DNA from: Stx2 converting phage I
Length of the DNA stretch: 61,765 nt
Reading direction: 5' to 3' (one strand)
Sequence record: AP004402
This document shows, piece after piece, positions 45,001 through 51,000 of this stretch (position 1 is the first letter of the stretch; each line of letters starts with the position of its first letter). A program made the position numbers.

Positions 45001-48000
45001 CACAGCGAGAAATTGATCGCGCTGAAACTGATTTACTCATCAACCTGTCAACGCTTACCCAGCGCGGTCTGGCAAAGATGATTGGCTGTCATGAATCGAA
45101 GATAAGCAGAACAGACTGGAGGTTTATAGCTTCGGTCTTGTGTGCTTTTGGCATGGCATCAGACATCAGTCCGATTAGCAGAGCTTTTAAGTATGCGCTT
45201 GATGAAATCACAAAGAAAAAATCCCCGGTGGCCGCCGGGGACTCTAAGCAAATTGATATGCAATTCTGAGGGAATTACTGGATCAATCCACAGGAGTCAT
45301 TATGACAAATACAGCAAAAATACTCAACTTCGGCAGAGGTAACTTTGCCGAACAGGAGCGTAATGTGGCAGATCTCGATGATGGTTACGCCAGACTATCA
45401 AATATGCTGATTGAGGCTTATTCAGGCGCAGATCTGACCAAGCGACAGTTTAAAGTGCTGCTTGCCATTCTGCGTAAAACCTATGGGTGGAATAAACCAA
45501 TGGACAGAATCACCGATTCTCAACTTAGCGAGATTACAAAGTTACCTGTCAAACGGTGCAATGAAGCCAAGTTAGAACTCGTCAGAATGAATATTATCAA
45601 GCAGCAAGGCGGCATGTTTGGACCAAATAAAAACATCTCAGAATGGTGCATCCCTCAAAACGAGGGAGGTTCCCCTAAAATGAGGGACATCCCTCAAAAC
45701 GAGGGAAAATCCCCTAAAACGAGGGATAAAACATCCCTCAAATTAGGGGATTGCTATCCCTCAAAACAGGGGGACACAAAAGACACTATTACAAAAGAAA
45801 AAAGAAAAGATTATTCGTCCGAGAATTCTGGCGAATCCTCTGACCAGCCAGAAAACGATCTTTCTGTGGTTAAACCGGATGCTGCAATTCAGAGCGGCAG
45901 CAAGTGGGGAACAGCAGAAGACCTGACCGCCGCAGAGTGGATGTTTGACATGGTGAAGACCATCGCACCATCAGCCAGAAAACCGAATTTTGCAGGGTGG
46001 GCTAACGATATCCGCCTGATGCGTGAACGTGACGGACGTAACCACCGCGACATGTGCGTGCTGTTCCGCTGGGCATGCCAGGACAACTTCTGGTCCGGTA
46101 ACGTGCTAAGTCCGGCCAAACTCCGCGACAAGTGGACCCAACTCGAAATCAACCGTAACAAGCAACAGGCTGGCGTGACAGCTGGAAAACCAAAACTCGA
46201 CCTGACAAACACTGACTGGATTTACGGGGTGGATTTATGAAAAACATCGCCGCACAGATGGTTAACTTTGACCGTGAGCAGATGCGTCGGATCACCAACA
46301 ACATGCCGGAACAGTACGACGAAAAGCCGCAGGTACAACAGGTAGCGCAGATCATCAACGGTGTGTTCAGCCAGTTACTGGCAACTTTCCCGGCGAGTCT
46401 GGCTAACCGGGACCAGAACGAACTGAATGAAATCCGCCGCCAGTGGGTTCTGGCTTTCCGGGAAAACGGGATCACCTCGATGGAACAGGTTAACGCAGGA
46501 ATGCGCGTAGCCCGTCGGCAGAATCGACCATTTCTTCCATCACCCGGGCAGTTTGTTGCATGGTGCCGGGAAGAAGCATCCGTTATCGCCGGACTGCCAA
46601 ACGTCAGCGAGCTGGTTGATATGGTTTACGAGTATTGCCGGAAGCGAGGCCTGTATCCGGATGCAGAGTCTTATCCGTGGAAATCGAACGCGCACTACTG
46701 GCTGGTTACCAACCTGTACCAGAACATGCGGGCCAATGCGCTGACTGACGCGGAATTACGACGCAAGGCTGCCGATGAACTGACCTGTATGACAGCGCGA
46801 ATTAACCGTGGTGAGACGATACCTGAACCAGTAAAACAACTTCCTGTCATGGGCGGCAGACCTCTAAATCGTGTTCAGGCGCTGGCGAAGATCGCAGAAA
46901 TTAAAGCTAAGTTCGGACTGAAAGGAGCAAGTGTATGACGGGCAAAGAGGCAATTATTCATTACCTGGGGACGCATAATAGCTTCTGTGCGCCGGACGTT
47001 GCCGCGCTAACAGGCGCAACAGTAACCAGCATAAATCAGGCCGCAGCTAAAATGGCACGGGCAGGTCTTCTGGTTATCGAAGGTAAGGTCTGGCGAACGG
47101 TGTATTACCGGTTTGCTACCAGGGAAGAACGGGAAGGAAAGGTGAGCACGAACCTGATTTTTAAGGAGTGTCGCCAGAGTGCAGCGATGAAACGGGTATT
47201 GGCGGTATATGGAGTTAAAAGATGACCATCTACATCACTGAGCTAATAACAGGCCTGCTGGTAATCGCAGGCCTTTTTATTTGGGGGAGAGGGAAGTGAA
47301 CGATAGCTACCGACAGTTTGAAAACTGGTGGTCAAAAGACAAAAGCCAGTTCACGGGAGACGATGAATTAAAAGAGTTTGCCTGGGTGATATGGCAGGCA
47401 TCGCGCTCTGCTATTGAACTGGATATCGACTGGCCCGAATCGAATGACGACTTTTGGAAAGATGGTGAAGAAGGTGCTTATGCGATGGGTTATGAGGATG
47501 GGCGTGACAAAACGGTAATTGCAGTAATGAAAGCCATCAGGGCCGCAGGAATCAAAGAAAAGAATTTCGATTAAGCAAATATCACTTCAATAAATCGCTT
47601 TTAAGGCATCACAATCGCTCTGTAGTGAGGTAAACGCGTGCAAGGCATGCCAATAGCAGCGAGAATGAAAAATGCGTCAGAATGCGTTTGAGGAGGTTTT
47701 AAGAAATGAGTACGATAGCTGAGCTTGTCAGGGCTAATTTTCGTGAAGAGTTGGTGCGTTGGTATCGGTATCGTTCATCGTCCAGTTTGCCGCTTGATGA
47801 GTTGTATGAGCATTCACCTGCCGCACGATGCTATCCGCGTGACCGTGTTCTTCGACGGTTGTTCAAACTCAACAATGAGTTTCAGCGCAACAGAATTATC
47901 CGGAGTCTGGATTTTAAGTGAAGGAGTGAGCATGAGCGACCTATCATTAACCCAGCCAAAGCTAAAAGAATGTCCGTTTTGCGGCGGTAATGCTCGTCTG

Positions 48001-51000
48001 TGGGTTGAGGCCGGAATAAATATTGATGTGTGGGGCTATGCAGAATGTGACCTCTGTGAAGCCAGGGGGGCATGGGCACCATCAGTTGCTGCGGCGGCTG
48101 AAAAATGGAACCGGAGAGCAGGAGATGAAGCAAACCTTTCTGCTTCGCAACGAAGCAATCAGAAATAACGCCATAGACGCCATTCTCTCACTACCCATCG
48201 ACGACAAGTCACCCCACGAAGTCCACGTTAAAGAACCCAAGCGCAGCAAAGCGCAGAATGACCGTATGTGGCCGATGCTGAACGATGTTTCGCGTCAGGT
48301 GCTATGGCATGGTCAACGGCTGGCGCCGGAAGACTGGAAAGACCTGTTCACTGCCCTGTGGCTTAAGACCAAAAAACTGGAGCAACGAAGTGTGCCTGGT
48401 ATCGACGGTGGCGTTGTCATGCTTGGCGTGCGTACCAGCAAAATGCGGAAGGCCAGCATGACTGAGCTTATCGAAATCATGTTCTGGTTCGGCTCAGAGC
48501 GCAACGTGCGGTGGAGTGATGACTCCCGGCGAGAGTATGAATGGTTACAACGAAAAGGTAGGGCTGCATGACTATCAAATCAAATACACCAGCACACGAC
48601 AAGGACTGCTGGCAAACGCCGCTTTGGCTTTTTGATGCACTGGATATTGAGTTTGGATTCTGGCTGGATTCAGCTGCGAGCGACAAAAATGCTCTGTGCG
48701 CTCACTGGCTAACTGAGGTCGACGACGCGCTCAATTCTGAGTGGGTAAGCCACGGTGCAATCTGGAATAACCCACCGTACAGCAATATCAGGCCGTGGGT
48801 GGAAAAAGCCGCTGAGCAGTGCATACAACAGCGACAGACGGTAGTTATGCTTGTACCAGAGGATATGTCAGTCGGATGGTTCAGCAAGGCTCTGGAGAGT
48901 GTTGACGAAGTTCGTATTATCACTGATGGACGGATTAATTTTATCGAACCATCGACAGGGCTGGAGAAGAAGGGAAACAGCAAAGGTTCCATGCTGCTGA
49001 TTTGGCGACCGTTCATCAGTCCTCGACGGATGTTTACTACCGTATCCAAAGCGGCATTGATGGCGATCGGGCAGGGCGTCAGAAGGGCGGCATGAGGCGA
49101 CAGCAAAGAAGCATCACCGACATCATCTGCGAAAACTGCAAATACCTTCCAACGAAACGCTCCAGAAATTTAGTTTTGAGCAGAATACCATGATGTCAGT
49201 GCAAGGGGGAGAAAGTCTCCTCATTATCTGATTCGCAATTTACGTGCATATTTAAATATTGCACGTTACAACGTGCATGTGTATGATTGACTTATCAATC
49301 ACAACACGAGATATGCTCATGAAAAATGATGATGTTAGTGGGAAGGCCAAAGGCGGTAAGGCACGCGCGGCAAAAATGACAGCAGAGCAAAGAAAAGAAT
49401 CCTCAAGAAAGGCTGTTGCCGCAAAAAAAGAAAAAGCTTTATTGCCCGTATCTGCGAATGAGGGAAAGTTAAAGATCGGTGATGCGGAATTAGATGTCGC
49501 GGTTCTCGAAAATGGACGGCGTATCATATCACAAGCTTCTGTTTTTAAAGCATTTGGCCGACCACAAAGAGGGGGTAGAGCACCTCAAGAAGAGGGGGTG
49601 ATCAATATGCCCGCTTTTATGGATGCTGCAAACCTTAAAAAATATATAAATCAAGATGTTATGGGTGTGATCAATAAGGTCAAATACAAGACGATTACTG
49701 GCTCCGTCCAGGAAGGTTATGACGCATCCATAATACCTCTTGTCTGCGATGTTTATTTAAAGGCAAGAGAGGCAGGCGCTATCACCAGGCCAAACCAGTT
49801 AGAGACAGCCAAGAAAGCTGAAATTCTGGTGCGCTCATTAGCTAAAGTCGGAATAATAGCGCTTGTTGATGAAGCGACGGGGTACCAGCGAGATAGAGAA
49901 AAAGATGCGCTCGCCAAAATACTCGAGGCCTTTGTCGCAAAGGAAATTCAACCTTATATTACAACATTTCCTGCTGATTATTATGAAGAGCTTTTCAGGT
50001 TAAGGGGCTTAGAATACCCGCCGGAAAATCCCCGCTTCCGGCCTCAGTATTTTGGCGTTTTGACAAATGATATCGTCTACAAGAGATTGGCACCAAACAT
50101 CCTTGAGGAGCTTAAAAAGCAGAACGTAAAGGCCTCAAAAGGTACAAAGTTGTTTCAGGGGCTGACGCCAAATATTGGATATCAAAAATTAAGAGAGCAT
50201 CTGTCATCAACCGTTACGATTATGAAGCTATCTAACGACTATTCAGATTTTATTGCAAAAATGAATCGCCTGCATCCAAGGTTTGAGGATGTGAAAACAG
50301 ACGAACTGGATGATTCAGACAAGTAACAGTAACCCACCTTCAGGTGGTTTTTTTGTACAAATCCTTCAGAGTAAGTTTACCTCCTTCACTGCATTACTAC
50401 TGACCATTGACAACTTAACAAACCCAGCTTCGGCTGGGTTTTTTATTGCTGAATTTTCAATGTGAGAGGACATGACAATGAATGAGCTGATAAATAGCAA
50501 TGCCATCAAAATGACAAGCATTGAAATCGCTGAGTTGGTGGGAAGCCAACACGGTAATGTCAGAATATCAATAGAACGTCTGGCAAAGCGTGGGGTGATT
50601 CAACTTCCTTCAATGCAAAAAGTTGAAAATAAACAAACAATTAGCCCTAACAAATTCACAAGCGTGTATATATTCGAAGGCGAACAAGGTAAGCGAGGCA
50701 GCATTATTGTCGTCGCTCAGTTGTCGCCGGAATTCACCGCTCGCCTTGTTGACCGCTGGCGAGAACTCGAAGGGGCAACCGCGAAAATACCACAAACCTT
50801 TTCTGAGGCATTGCGCCTTGCGGCCGACCTTGAAGACCAGAAGGCTGAACTGGAGAAACAGCTTGCTCTCGCAGCACCTAAAGTTGAGTTTGCCGATCGA
50901 GTTGGCGAGGCCAGCGGAATTTTGATTGGAAACTTTGCAAAGGTTGTTGGTATTGGTCCAAACAAACTGTTTGCGTGGATGCGCGATCACAAAATCCTTA

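What the first reader, a model, noticed from the sequence alone, without database searches (positions are those of the whole stretch)
47932..49095. Anti-restriction cluster in the nin region: Lar-like protein, NinB and an NPPY adenine methyltransferase
A 78-aa CPFCGG-motif protein (Lar-like) overlaps NinB, which is followed by a Dam-like methylase with the NPPY motif. Together these would protect incoming phage DNA from host restriction. The methylase could also methylate the GATC array in terS.
Basis: partly seen in the sequence, partly recalled or inferred. Interest (0 to 1): 0.45.

Follow-up and report, generated by a model that had tools for sequence, protein, structure and literature searches.

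The report
Known Lar, NinB and Dam genes
Three adjacent, already annotated early genes of a Shiga-toxin phage: a small Lar-type zinc-finger protein, the NinB recombination helper and a GATC adenine methylase. They are correctly spotted but ordinary, and they are not a dedicated anti-restriction unit.

Summary
The three genes are a 78-aa Lar-family Cys4 protein (47932-48168), NinB/Orf (48125-48571, 44-nt overlap) and a T1/HP1-type adenine methyltransferase with NPPY (48568-49095, ATGA overlap).

The window is a 933W-like Stx phage. This stretch is 100% identical to BP-4795 and 99.9% to 933W, where RefSeq and PGAP already name all three genes. The methylase is 174/175 identical to M.EcoVT2Dam of VT2-Sakai, which REBASE lists as GATC-specific.

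- NinB is a recombination mediator, not an anti-restriction protein.
- The three genes assort independently. Salmonella prophages have Lar+NinB without Dam. mEp213 and other Stx phages have NinB+Dam without Lar.
- Of 73 diverse Lar loci, only 1 has this Dam nearby.
- The Lar-like protein is 36% identical to Rac Lar/RalR. It fails the RalR equivalog cut-off and has no RalA antitoxin RNA.
- The terS "GATC array" is real: a 12-bp tandem repeat with 4 GATC sites. Its copy number varies, it is absent from a 76%-identical terS, and it occurs in phages that lack this Dam.

Verdict: already known, low interest.

The parts
47251..47274 (+). Terminator-like GC-rich hairpin followed by a T-run, between ren and the nin genes. 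This is a tR2-like position. It places the cluster in the N-antitermination-dependent delayed-early part of the pR operon.
   Evidence: 8-bp stem, 6 GC pairs, TTTTTATTT tail. The position relative to ren and ninB matches the lambda nin-region layout (established knowledge). Function not tested.
47706..47921 (+). DUF7301 protein gene (71 aa) immediately upstream of the Lar-like gene. Function unknown.
   Evidence: PF23975, 89.2 bits; phrog_1785. PGAP names it 'DUF7301 family protein'.
47932..48168 (+). Lar-family protein gene (78 aa). It has a Cys4 zinc-ribbon-type motif (C14, C17, C39, C42) and a C-terminal WNRR motif (residues 59-62). Its last 14 codons run into ninB.
   Evidence: PF14354 41.3 bits; TIGR03655 62.3 bits; phrog_599 'Lar-like restriction alleviation protein', 135 bits. 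36% identity over 58 aa to Rac Lar/RalR, E 9e-10. 100% identical to VT2-Sakai H0103.
48065..48070 (+). G6 homopolymer tract inside the Lar-like gene. 933W/EDL933 and some other strains carry G7, which shifts the frame after the second CxxC. That gives a 56-aa product lacking the conserved WNRR C-terminus.
   Evidence: Alignment with 933W. The exact G6 81-mer is the best match in 324 E. coli records and the exact G7 82-mer in 22, out of 491 records. Two-piece tblastn hits in 933W and Min27. The 56-aa form is P0003.
48125..48571 (+). ninB (orf) gene, 148 aa. It encodes a recombination mediator.
   Evidence: PF05772, 165.1 bits, profile positions 1-131 of 131. Lambda NinB structure 1PC6, E 6.6e-29. 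Function from PMC4118853.
48568..49095 (+). Orphan N6-adenine DNA methyltransferase of the phage T1/HP1 Dam family, 175 aa. NPPY lies at residues 68-71 (48769-48780). It is an ortholog of M.EcoVT2Dam.
   Evidence: PF05869 217.5 bits; TIGR01712 264.1 bits. 174/175 identical to VT2-Sakai Dam. 35% identical to HP1 Dam and 32% to T1 Dam, with D13-x-W15-x-T17-P18, L33-D34-x-x-A37 and N68-P-P-Y-S72 invariant. GATC specificity comes from REBASE as listed in PMC6602927 Table 3.
49092..49193 (+). Truncated ninE (33 aa against 60 aa in VT2-Sakai). Its start overlaps the Dam stop (ATGA). It diverges after residue 26, where the P63C/Roi module (49319-51200) is inserted.
   Evidence: VT2-Sakai NinE translation. 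P63C and ANT domains.
60663..60715 (+). 12-bp tandem repeat (4.4 copies, consensus AAATCGATCATG) in the terS linker. It encodes (I/T)DHE repeats and carries four GATC sites. No specific link to the Dam gene was found.
   Evidence: terS is phrog_370, 418 bits. There are 3 copies in Stx2_KIH15-140 and EH0430 and none in the GER2 terS. The array is present in 4 phages without PF05869 Dam.

Best explanation
The region holds three independently acquired accessory genes of the lambdoid nin region in a 933W/VT2-Sakai-type Stx phage. They are transcribed together from pR once N antitermination reads through a tR2-like terminator, and their overlapping starts and stops (44 nt, 4 nt, 4 nt) suggest linked translation.

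1. The 78-aa Lar-family Cys4 protein most likely acts like Rac Lar. That means it modulates type IA restriction-modification enzymes (EcoKI type), so that restriction is alleviated and modification of unmodified phage DNA is enhanced. This is inferred from family membership only.
2. NinB/Orf loads recombinase onto SSB-coated ssDNA for phage recombination. This is known for lambda Orf and is inferred here from strong homology.
3. The 175-aa T1/HP1-type methyltransferase, 99% identical to M.EcoVT2Dam, methylates adenine in GATC on replicating phage DNA during lytic growth. It tops up or replaces host Dam.

The adjacency reflects the mosaic nin-region slot structure, not a functional unit. Whatever gene sits upstream of ninB reads 44 nt into ninB and ends with the same ...EAN(L/I)(S/H)ASQRSNQK tail.
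For: - Identities: curated HMM hits above cut-off for all three genes, the NinB match to PDB 1PC6, and Dam 174/175 identical to VT2-Sakai Dam.
- Dam family motifs are conserved against HP1 and T1 Dam.
- Lar-like keeps the four Cys and the WN(R/K)R motif shared with Rac Lar.
- The stretch is 100% or 99.9% identical to annotated phages and prophages where the genes already carry these names.
- Expression context: a terminator-like hairpin at 47251-47274, and no promoter-like site on the + strand between it and the genes.
- Independent assortment: Lar+NinB-NinE without Dam in six Salmonella prophage contexts, with the same 44-nt overlap. NinB+Dam without Lar in mEp213, where an unrelated phrog_343 gene carries the same C-terminal tail. 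Dam without Lar in Stx2_EH0505 and Stx2_16002.
- Phage-record counts: 118 with this Lar against 243 with Dam at >=95% identity.
- Of 73 diverse Lar loci, 1 has this Dam and 1 has NinB nearby.
- The phage has 5 EcoKI and 14 EcoBI sites, so it is a type IA target.
- Host Dam is needed for stable 933W lysogeny (Murphy 2008, as cited in PMC3342100). This fits a prophage Dam that is not effectively expressed under repression.
Against: - No experiment on this Lar-like protein was found. It is only 36% identical to Rac Lar.
- Rac Lar itself has been re-described as the DNase toxin RalR (PMC4041452).
- The structure prediction was unusable (pLDDT 52).
- Phi24B Dam was reported as expressed in lysogen cultures (PMC3342100), so expression may not be strictly lytic.
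- GATC specificity and activity of this exact allele are inferred from a 1-residue-different ortholog. The primary paper for that ortholog (Radlinska & Bujnicki 2001) could not be read here.
- The conserved Lar-ninB overlap in two divergent Lar alleles (49% identity) could also mean a real functional coupling between Lar and NinB.
Confidence: 0.8

Rival explanations
1. First reader's model. Lar-like, NinB and Dam form one coherent anti-restriction module that protects incoming phage DNA from host restriction.
For: - Two of the three genes belong to families annotated as anti-restriction or anti-defence. Lar family. Phage methyltransferases are scored as anti-RM by DefenseFinder in related EHEC phages (PMC12502783).
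- The three genes are contiguous and overlapping in 113 phage records.
Against: - NinB is a recombination mediator.
- The genes assort independently.
- Both candidate genes lie in a delayed-early operon behind a terminator, so they act after the incoming DNA has already met restriction.
- GATC methylation is redundant with host Dam in E. coli.
Confidence: 0.12
2. The Lar-like protein is a RalR-type DNase toxin of a type I toxin-antitoxin pair rather than a restriction-alleviation factor.
For: - Rac Lar is RalR, reported as a non-specific endonuclease toxin countered by the sRNA RalA (PMC4041452).
- The window protein gives a weak hit to the RalR model NF007260 (27.6 bits) and is 36% identical to RalR.
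Against: - NF007260 scores 27.6 bits against a cut-off of 113.
- RalA (RF02694) is found in the Rac control at 225 bits. It is absent from the region at E<=1 and from the whole window at gathering score.
- Here the gene sits in a lytic operon, reading into ninB, in 486 E. coli genomes.
- No nuclease motif is evident in a 78-aa Cys4 protein (inference).
Confidence: 0.07
3. The phage Dam mainly serves phage DNA housekeeping and regulation, not restriction evasion. It would keep rapidly replicating phage DNA fully GATC-methylated. That avoids MutH incision and SeqA binding at under-methylated sites and influences the lysis-lysogeny balance.
For: - Its specificity is the same as host Dam (PMC6602927 Table 3), so it adds no new protective mark in E. 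coli.
- Host Dam is required for stable 933W lysogeny (cited in PMC3342100).
- The phage is strongly GATC-depleted: obs/exp 0.59, the second lowest palindromic tetramer. This indicates selection connected with Dam sites.
- The gene sits among recombination genes (ninB, ninG).
- PMC7556043 states that the function of phage Dam enzymes is still not well understood.
Against: - There is no direct evidence in this phage.
- The same family occurs in virulent T1-like and Klebsiella and Vibrio phages (1898 records), where protection against GATC-cutting, methyl-sensitive enzymes in Dam-negative or mixed hosts is a simpler reading.
Confidence: 0.3
4. The Dam gates DNA packaging in the manner of phage P1. 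Methylation of the four GATC repeats in terS would control terminase recognition or cleavage at a pac site.
For: - Four GATCAT elements at exact 12-bp spacing lie inside terS.
- pac sites of headful phages commonly lie in terS, and P1 pac needs Dam-methylated GATC hexamers (established knowledge, Sternberg & Coulby 1990).
Against: - The array is a coding tandem repeat whose copy number varies between 3 and 4. It is absent from the 76%-identical GER2 terS.
- There is only one cluster and no second flanking set.
- Four of six array-bearing phages examined lack this Dam. The MT-A70 enzyme they carry is reported to be a 16S rRNA methyltransferase (PMC10810198).
- No data on the packaging start site were found.
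Confidence: 0.05

Closest known systems
M.EcoVT2Dam (Dam of prophage VT2-Sakai; Radlinska & Bujnicki 2001)
   Same: 174 of 175 residues identical. Same position between ninB and ninE. Listed as a GATC-specific orphan methyltransferase (PMC6602927).
   Different: One substitution (V51A). In the window, ninE downstream is truncated by a P63C-gene insertion.
Phage T1 Dam and Haemophilus phage HP1 Dam (TIGR01712 / PF05869 family)
   Same: Same small single-domain enzyme with no separate target-recognition domain. NPPY, DxWxTP and LDxxA motifs are invariant. The family HMM score is far above cut-off.
   Different: Only 32-35% identity. T1 Dam has a 45-residue N-terminal extension and an internal insert. 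The genomic contexts differ.
Rac prophage Lar (= RalR)
   Same: Small Cys4 protein with the same CPFCG...CxxC...WN(K/R)R layout. 36% identity over 58 aa. Both pass the Lar family models.
   Different: Fails the RalR equivalog cut-off (27.6 against 113). No RalA sRNA is present. It lies in the nin region next to ninB rather than next to recT/recE. It has a 14-residue tail encoded by the ninB 5' end.
Lambda Orf / NinB (PDB 1PC6)
   Same: Full-length homolog, E 6.6e-29. Same position in the nin region.
   Different: Lambda has no Lar-like gene upstream and has ninC, not dam, downstream (established knowledge of the lambda map).
Lambda Ral
   Same: Functional analogue of Lar: alleviation of type IA restriction and enhancement of modification (King & Murray 1995, cited in PMC4041452). 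Both are N-dependent early genes.
   Different: No sequence relationship. Ral is in the pL operon. Ral proteins are present in other EHEC phages (PMC12502783).
Phage P1 Dam and pac
   Same: A phage-encoded GATC methylase together with clustered GATC elements inside the small-terminase gene.
   Different: P1 Dam belongs to another methylase class. P1 pac has 7 elements in two sets flanking the cut site, whereas here there is one set of 4 (or 3) inside a coding tandem repeat. The array is not conserved with terS and is not tied to Dam presence.

Membership tests
Lar family restriction alleviation protein (TIGR03655 / PF14354) | Score above the curated family cut-offs | tested here: met
   TIGR03655 62.3 bits (cut-off 39.6); PF14354 41.3 bits (cut-off 28.6).
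Lar family restriction alleviation protein (TIGR03655 / PF14354) | Two CxxC pairs plus a C-terminal WN(R/K)R motif | tested here: met
   C14, C17, C39, C42, N60 and R62 are invariant in the alignment with Rac Lar and a Salmonella homolog.
Lar family restriction alleviation protein (TIGR03655 / PF14354) | Alleviates EcoKI restriction and enhances modification | not testable with these tools
   Needs EOP and modification assays. No published test of this protein was found.
RalR/RalA type I toxin-antitoxin system (NF007260 equivalog plus Rfam RF02694) | Protein reaches the RalR equivalog cut-off | tested here: not met
   27.6 bits against a cut-off of 113.
RalR/RalA type I toxin-antitoxin system (NF007260 equivalog plus Rfam RF02694) | RalA antitoxin sRNA encoded nearby | tested here: not met
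   RalA is found at 225 bits in the Rac control. There is no hit in 46900-50400 at E<=1 or anywhere in the window at gathering score.
NinB / Orf recombination mediator (PF05772) | Full-length family match and homology to the solved lambda Orf | tested here: met
   165.1 bits over profile positions 1-131 of 131. 1PC6, E 6.6e-29, over residues 2-146.
NinB / Orf recombination mediator (PF05772) | Binds ssDNA and SSB and substitutes for RecFOR | not testable with these tools
   Shown for lambda Orf and YbcN (PMC4118853). Inferred here.
Phage N6-adenine methyltransferase, T1/HP1 Dam type (TIGR01712 equivalog / PF05869) | Score above the equivalog cut-off | tested here: met
   TIGR01712 264.1 bits (cut-off 97.05); PF05869 217.5 bits (cut-off 28.1).
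Phage N6-adenine methyltransferase, T1/HP1 Dam type (TIGR01712 equivalog / PF05869) | Catalytic (D/N)PPY motif and conserved N-terminal DxWxTP / LDxxA motifs | tested here: met
   N68-P-P-Y71, D13, W15, T17, P18, L33, D34 and A37 are invariant against HP1, T1 and Klebsiella RAH1 enzymes.
Phage N6-adenine methyltransferase, T1/HP1 Dam type (TIGR01712 equivalog / PF05869) | Methylates adenine in GATC | not testable with these tools
   Inferred from 174/175 identity to M.EcoVT2Dam, which is listed with GATC specificity (PMC6602927 Table 3).
Phage N6-adenine methyltransferase, T1/HP1 Dam type (TIGR01712 equivalog / PF05869) | Orphan enzyme with no cognate restriction endonuclease adjacent | tested here: met
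   The flanking genes are ninB and ninE.
P1-type Dam-gated pac site | Two sets of GATC-containing elements flanking a cleavage site in the small-terminase gene | tested here: not met
   There is only one set of four GATC, at 60668-60704. The nearest other GATCs are at 60440 and 61613.
P1-type Dam-gated pac site | Element conserved with the terS family and tied to a phage GATC methylase | tested here: not met
   There are 3 or 4 copies in close relatives and none in the GER2 terS (76% identity). Four of six array-bearing phages lack PF05869 Dam.

The most novel reading that the evidence does not exclude
The 12-bp GATC tandem repeat in terS (60663-60715) may be the packaging recognition element of 933W-type Stx phages, with its use modulated by GATC methylation as at P1 pac. 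The phage Dam would then ensure full methylation during the lytic burst. A smaller variant: the G6/G7 tract in the Lar-like gene may act as a slippage switch that turns restriction alleviation on and off in prophage populations.
Probability: 0.06. Interest if true: 0.5.

Novelty: already known. Interest (0 to 1): 0.12.

Why it matters
It matters little beyond correct annotation. The genes are already named in RefSeq and PGAP records of 933W, VT2-Sakai, BP-4795 and hundreds of E. coli genomes, and the methylase ortholog is a REBASE-named enzyme.

The useful points are corrective.
- NinB should not be counted as anti-restriction.
- The Lar-like protein is a family member but not a RalR/RalA toxin-antitoxin equivalent.
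- The reference phage 933W carries a frameshifted Lar-like allele.
- The roles of the Lar-like protein and of a host-redundant GATC methylase in Stx phage biology remain untested. Both could be settled with simple EOP and methylation assays.

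Tried and rejected
- **Structure of the Lar-like protein.** The word-indexed homolog search returned only 6 proteins. AlphaFold2 with the resulting 4-sequence alignment gave mean pLDDT 52.5. That is too poor for a fold search, so none was run.
- **PDB sequence searches.** Searches for Lar and Dam gave no meaningful hits. Lar matched only eL43 zinc ribbons at E about 0.01, and Dam gave noise.
- **RalA-type antitoxin.** None found in the window, with a positive control in Rac.
- **Dam and terS array co-occurrence.** Tested on seven related phages and rejected as a specific link. I considered that the MT-A70 enzyme in Dam-less phages might be a second GATC methylase. The literature reports it as a 16S rRNA methyltransferase (PMC10810198), and the window has no copy.
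- **Packaging sites.** A literature search for 933W packaging sites found nothing usable.
- **Papers not held.** Murphy et al. 2008 (PMC2223730) is not in the library. Radlinska & Bujnicki 2001 is not held either. Both are cited second-hand.
- **Internal promoter.** A search for one that would make the cluster N-independent found no + strand site between 47275 and 48568.

Full report
**Observation**

- A 78-codon ORF runs from ATG 47932 to TAA 48168. It is preceded by GAAGGAG five bases upstream. It encodes MSDLSLTQPKLKECPFCGG...CDLC...EKWNRRAGDEANLSASQRSNQK.
- A 148-codon ORF runs from ATG 48125 to TGA 48571.
- A 175-codon ORF runs from ATG 48568 to TGA 49095, with NNPPYS at residues 67-72.

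The overlaps are 44 nt (Lar-like/NinB) and 4 nt (NinB/Dam, ATGA). A further ATGA overlap joins Dam to a short ninE ORF at 49092.

Curated profile searches place all three genes above family cut-offs:
- Lar family: PF14354 41.3 bits (cut-off 28.6) and TIGR03655 62.3 bits (cut-off 39.6).
- NinB: PF05772 165.1 bits over the whole profile.
- Phage N-6-adenine methyltransferase: PF05869 217.5 bits and TIGR01712 264.1 bits (cut-off 97).

PHROGs agrees.

**What the window is**

The 1.7-kb stretch 47600-49300 is 100% identical to phage BP-4795, to Stx phage ST2-8624 and to prophages of E. coli O157:H7 86-24 and others. It is 99.9% identical to 933W. In RefSeq 933W the genes are already named 'Lar-like restriction alleviation protein', 'NinB/Orf homologous recombination mediator' and 'DNA methyltransferase'. 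PGAP names them 'Lar family restriction alleviation protein', 'recombination protein NinB' and 'phage N-6-adenine-methyltransferase' in hundreds of genomes. VT2-Sakai has the same layout, with the same 78-aa protein (100% identical). Its dam gene product is 174/175 identical to the window's. That enzyme is the REBASE-named orphan M.EcoVT2Dam, cloned by Radlinska & Bujnicki 2001 and listed with GATC specificity (PMC6602927; PMC7556043). The finding is therefore already known at the level of annotation.

**The three proteins**

*Dam.* It aligns with HP1 Dam (35% identity) and T1 Dam (32%). D13-x-W15-x-T17-P18, L33-D34-x-x-A37 and N68-P-P-Y-S72 are invariant. The family is widespread, with 1898 phage records including T1-like, Klebsiella, Vibrio, Lactococcus and Gordonia phages. 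No relative with a solved structure is detectable by sequence. It is the only recognisable DNA methylase in the window. The MT-A70 enzyme of other Stx phages is absent.

*NinB.* It matches the solved lambda Orf structure 1PC6 at E 6.6e-29. Orf is a recombination mediator that targets SSB-coated ssDNA (PMC4118853; PMC2034487). Nothing links it to restriction evasion.

*Lar-like.* It is 36% identical over 58 residues to Rac Lar/RalR (E 9e-10). All four cysteines and the WN(K/R)R motif are conserved. By my count from the sequence its net charge is about -1, so it is not an Ocr/ArdA-style acidic DNA mimic. It scores 27.6 bits against the RalR equivalog model, whose cut-off is 113. The RalA antitoxin RNA is found in the Rac control at 225 bits but is absent from the region and from the whole window. 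It is therefore a Lar-family member but not a RalR/RalA equivalent. Structure prediction failed for lack of alignment depth (pLDDT 52.5).

**Organisation and expression**

A terminator-like hairpin with a T-run lies at 47251-47274, between ren and the nin genes. No promoter-like site on the + strand lies between it and the three genes. This is the classical nin-region situation, in which expression from pR requires N antitermination (inferred from the lambda paradigm). The products therefore appear after the infecting DNA has already been exposed to host restriction. A methylase marks progeny DNA only. A Lar-type factor can help only surviving or superinfecting genomes and promote their modification.

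This position also fits the report that host Dam is required for stable 933W lysogeny (Murphy 2008, cited in PMC3342100). The prophage copy evidently does not substitute under repression, although Phi24B Dam was detected in lysogen cultures.

**Is it a functional cluster?**

Comparative tests say no.
- A Salmonella Lar-family allele, only 49% identical, sits in the same place with the same 44-nt overlap into ninB. There NinB is followed directly by NinE and there is no Dam (six contexts).
- In mEp213, NinB-Dam-NinE is present but the upstream gene is an unrelated phrog_343 homolog. It ends with the same ...EANIHASQRSNQK tail. The tail is simply the ninB 5' end read in another frame, and this is a mosaic junction.
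- Stx2_EH0505 and Stx2_16002 have the Dam but no Lar-like gene.
- In the phage collection, 118 records carry this Lar and 243 carry the Dam at >=95% identity.
- Of 73 diverse Lar-family loci from IMG/VR, one has a PF05869 Dam and one has NinB within 3.5 kb.
- Among 136 immediate neighbours of those loci, the commonest families are RecT (12) and DUF1187 (10), which is the Rac arrangement. Only four neighbours are DNA methylases of any kind.

**Likely function of the Dam**

Its specificity duplicates host Dam, so an anti-restriction benefit in E. coli is not evident. The phage is markedly GATC-depleted, with 157 sites observed against 268 expected. The ratio of 0.59 is the second lowest among palindromic tetramers, after CTAG. 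The phage also has more long GATC-free gaps than expected, and one gap (46890-49065) covers the cluster itself.

Plausible roles are completing methylation of fast-replicating DNA, influencing lysogeny, or protecting against methyl-sensitive GATC-cutting enzymes in other hosts. Completing methylation would avoid MutH and SeqA effects. I rate the housekeeping and regulatory reading at about 0.3, and it is not exclusive of the others. The window has 5 EcoKI and 14 EcoBI sites, so a type IA-directed Lar activity would be relevant.

**The terS GATC array**

It is real. A 12-bp unit (AAATCGATCATG) is repeated 4.4 times at 60663-60715, inside the linker of TerS (phrog_370, 418 bits). It encodes (I/T)DHE repeats.

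Several results weaken any link to the Dam gene.
- Copy number varies. There are 3 copies in Stx2_KIH15-140 and EH0430.
- The 76%-identical GER2 terS has no array.
- Four of six array-bearing phages examined lack the PF05869 Dam.
- Those four phages carry an MT-A70 enzyme (PF05063). A highly similar protein is reported to be a 16S rRNA methyltransferase (PMC10810198).
- There is only one GATC cluster, not two flanking sets as at P1 pac.

The phage Dam would of course methylate these sites, as would host Dam. No evidence ties the array to this gene. The P1-like idea stays a low-probability speculation.

**Side observations**

933W/EDL933 differs from the window by G7 instead of G6 at 48065-48070. 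This shifts the Lar-like frame after the second CxxC and removes the conserved C-terminus. The G7 allele is the best match in 22 of 491 E. coli records, against 324 for exact G6. It corresponds to a 56-aa protein cluster (P0003). The RefSeq 933W model for this gene starts at an upstream GTG that overlaps DUF7301 in another frame. That start is probably an artefact.

ninE is truncated to 33 codons by the P63C/Roi insertion.

**Verdict**

The feature is already known and of low interest.

Noticed in passing
window 48065-48070: The G6 homopolymer in the Lar-like gene is G7 in 933W/EDL933, Min27 and about 22 of 491 E. coli records. The G7 allele gives a 56-aa product without the conserved WNRR C-terminus. 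The reference phage 933W therefore probably carries a defective Lar-like gene. The cause could be slippage-prone variation or simple decay.
   Followed up: partly
window 48125-48168; L007-L012 4215-4258; L013 2058-2101: Whatever gene lies upstream of ninB reads 44 nt into ninB and ends with the same ...EAN(L/I)(S/H)ASQRSNQK tail. This holds for the Lar-like gene here, a 49%-identical Lar allele in Salmonella and an unrelated phrog_343 gene in mEp213. It marks a conserved mosaic recombination junction at the ninB start.
   Followed up: partly
L001 4144-4503 (933W NC_000924 15997-16356): The RefSeq model of the 933W 'Lar-like' gene starts at an upstream GTG and overlaps the DUF7301 gene in another frame (119 aa). 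The ATG with a strong Shine-Dalgarno at the position equivalent to window 47932 is the likely true start.
   Followed up: partly
window 49092-49193 and 49319-51200: ninE is truncated to 33 codons (60 in VT2-Sakai). It diverges after residue 26, where a P63C-domain gene and a Roi/KilAC antirepressor gene are inserted before ninG.
   Followed up: partly
window 60663-60715: The 12-bp tandem repeat in terS carries 4 GATC sites. Its copy number is 3 in some Stx2a phages, and it is absent from the 76%-identical GER2 terS, which has TGCGCA-type repeats in the same linker. Its role, if any, in packaging recognition is unknown.
   Followed up: partly
whole window: GATC is depleted (157 observed against 268 expected, ratio 0.59) even though the phage encodes a GATC methylase. 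Four GATC-free gaps of at least 2175 bp occur where 0.62 are expected. These include 46890-49065 (the cluster itself) and 52416-58185, which has only two sites and covers the stx region.
   Followed up: partly
window 28695-28869 (-): An Rfam sok antitoxin (CssrC) match at 113.5 bits suggests a hok/sok-type type I toxin-antitoxin locus in the phage.
   Followed up: no
window 31221-31309 (-), 54522-54727 (+), 54729-54781 (-), 39647-39705 (-): Other Rfam matches above gathering score are sRNA-Xcc1 (69 bits), STnc100 (208 bits), AsxR anti-stx2 sRNA (88 bits) and the lambda cIII thermoregulator (88.5 bits). Three tRNAs lie at 52865-53113.
   Followed up: no
L017, L019, L020, L021 (Oslovirus-type Stx phages); L020 2264-2890 (-): Stx phages that share this terS but lack the PF05869 Dam carry two other methylases. 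One is a 208-aa MT-A70 enzyme with DPPW. The other is a 489-aa NPPY methylase that looks BsuBI/PstI-like, judged from the GER2 annotation and not scanned itself. The window has neither.
   Followed up: partly
window 47281-47574: This ORF belongs to phrog_343 and has no Pfam match. It lies just after the tR2-like terminator. Its homolog in mEp213 is fused onto the ninB junction in place of the Lar-like gene.
   Followed up: no
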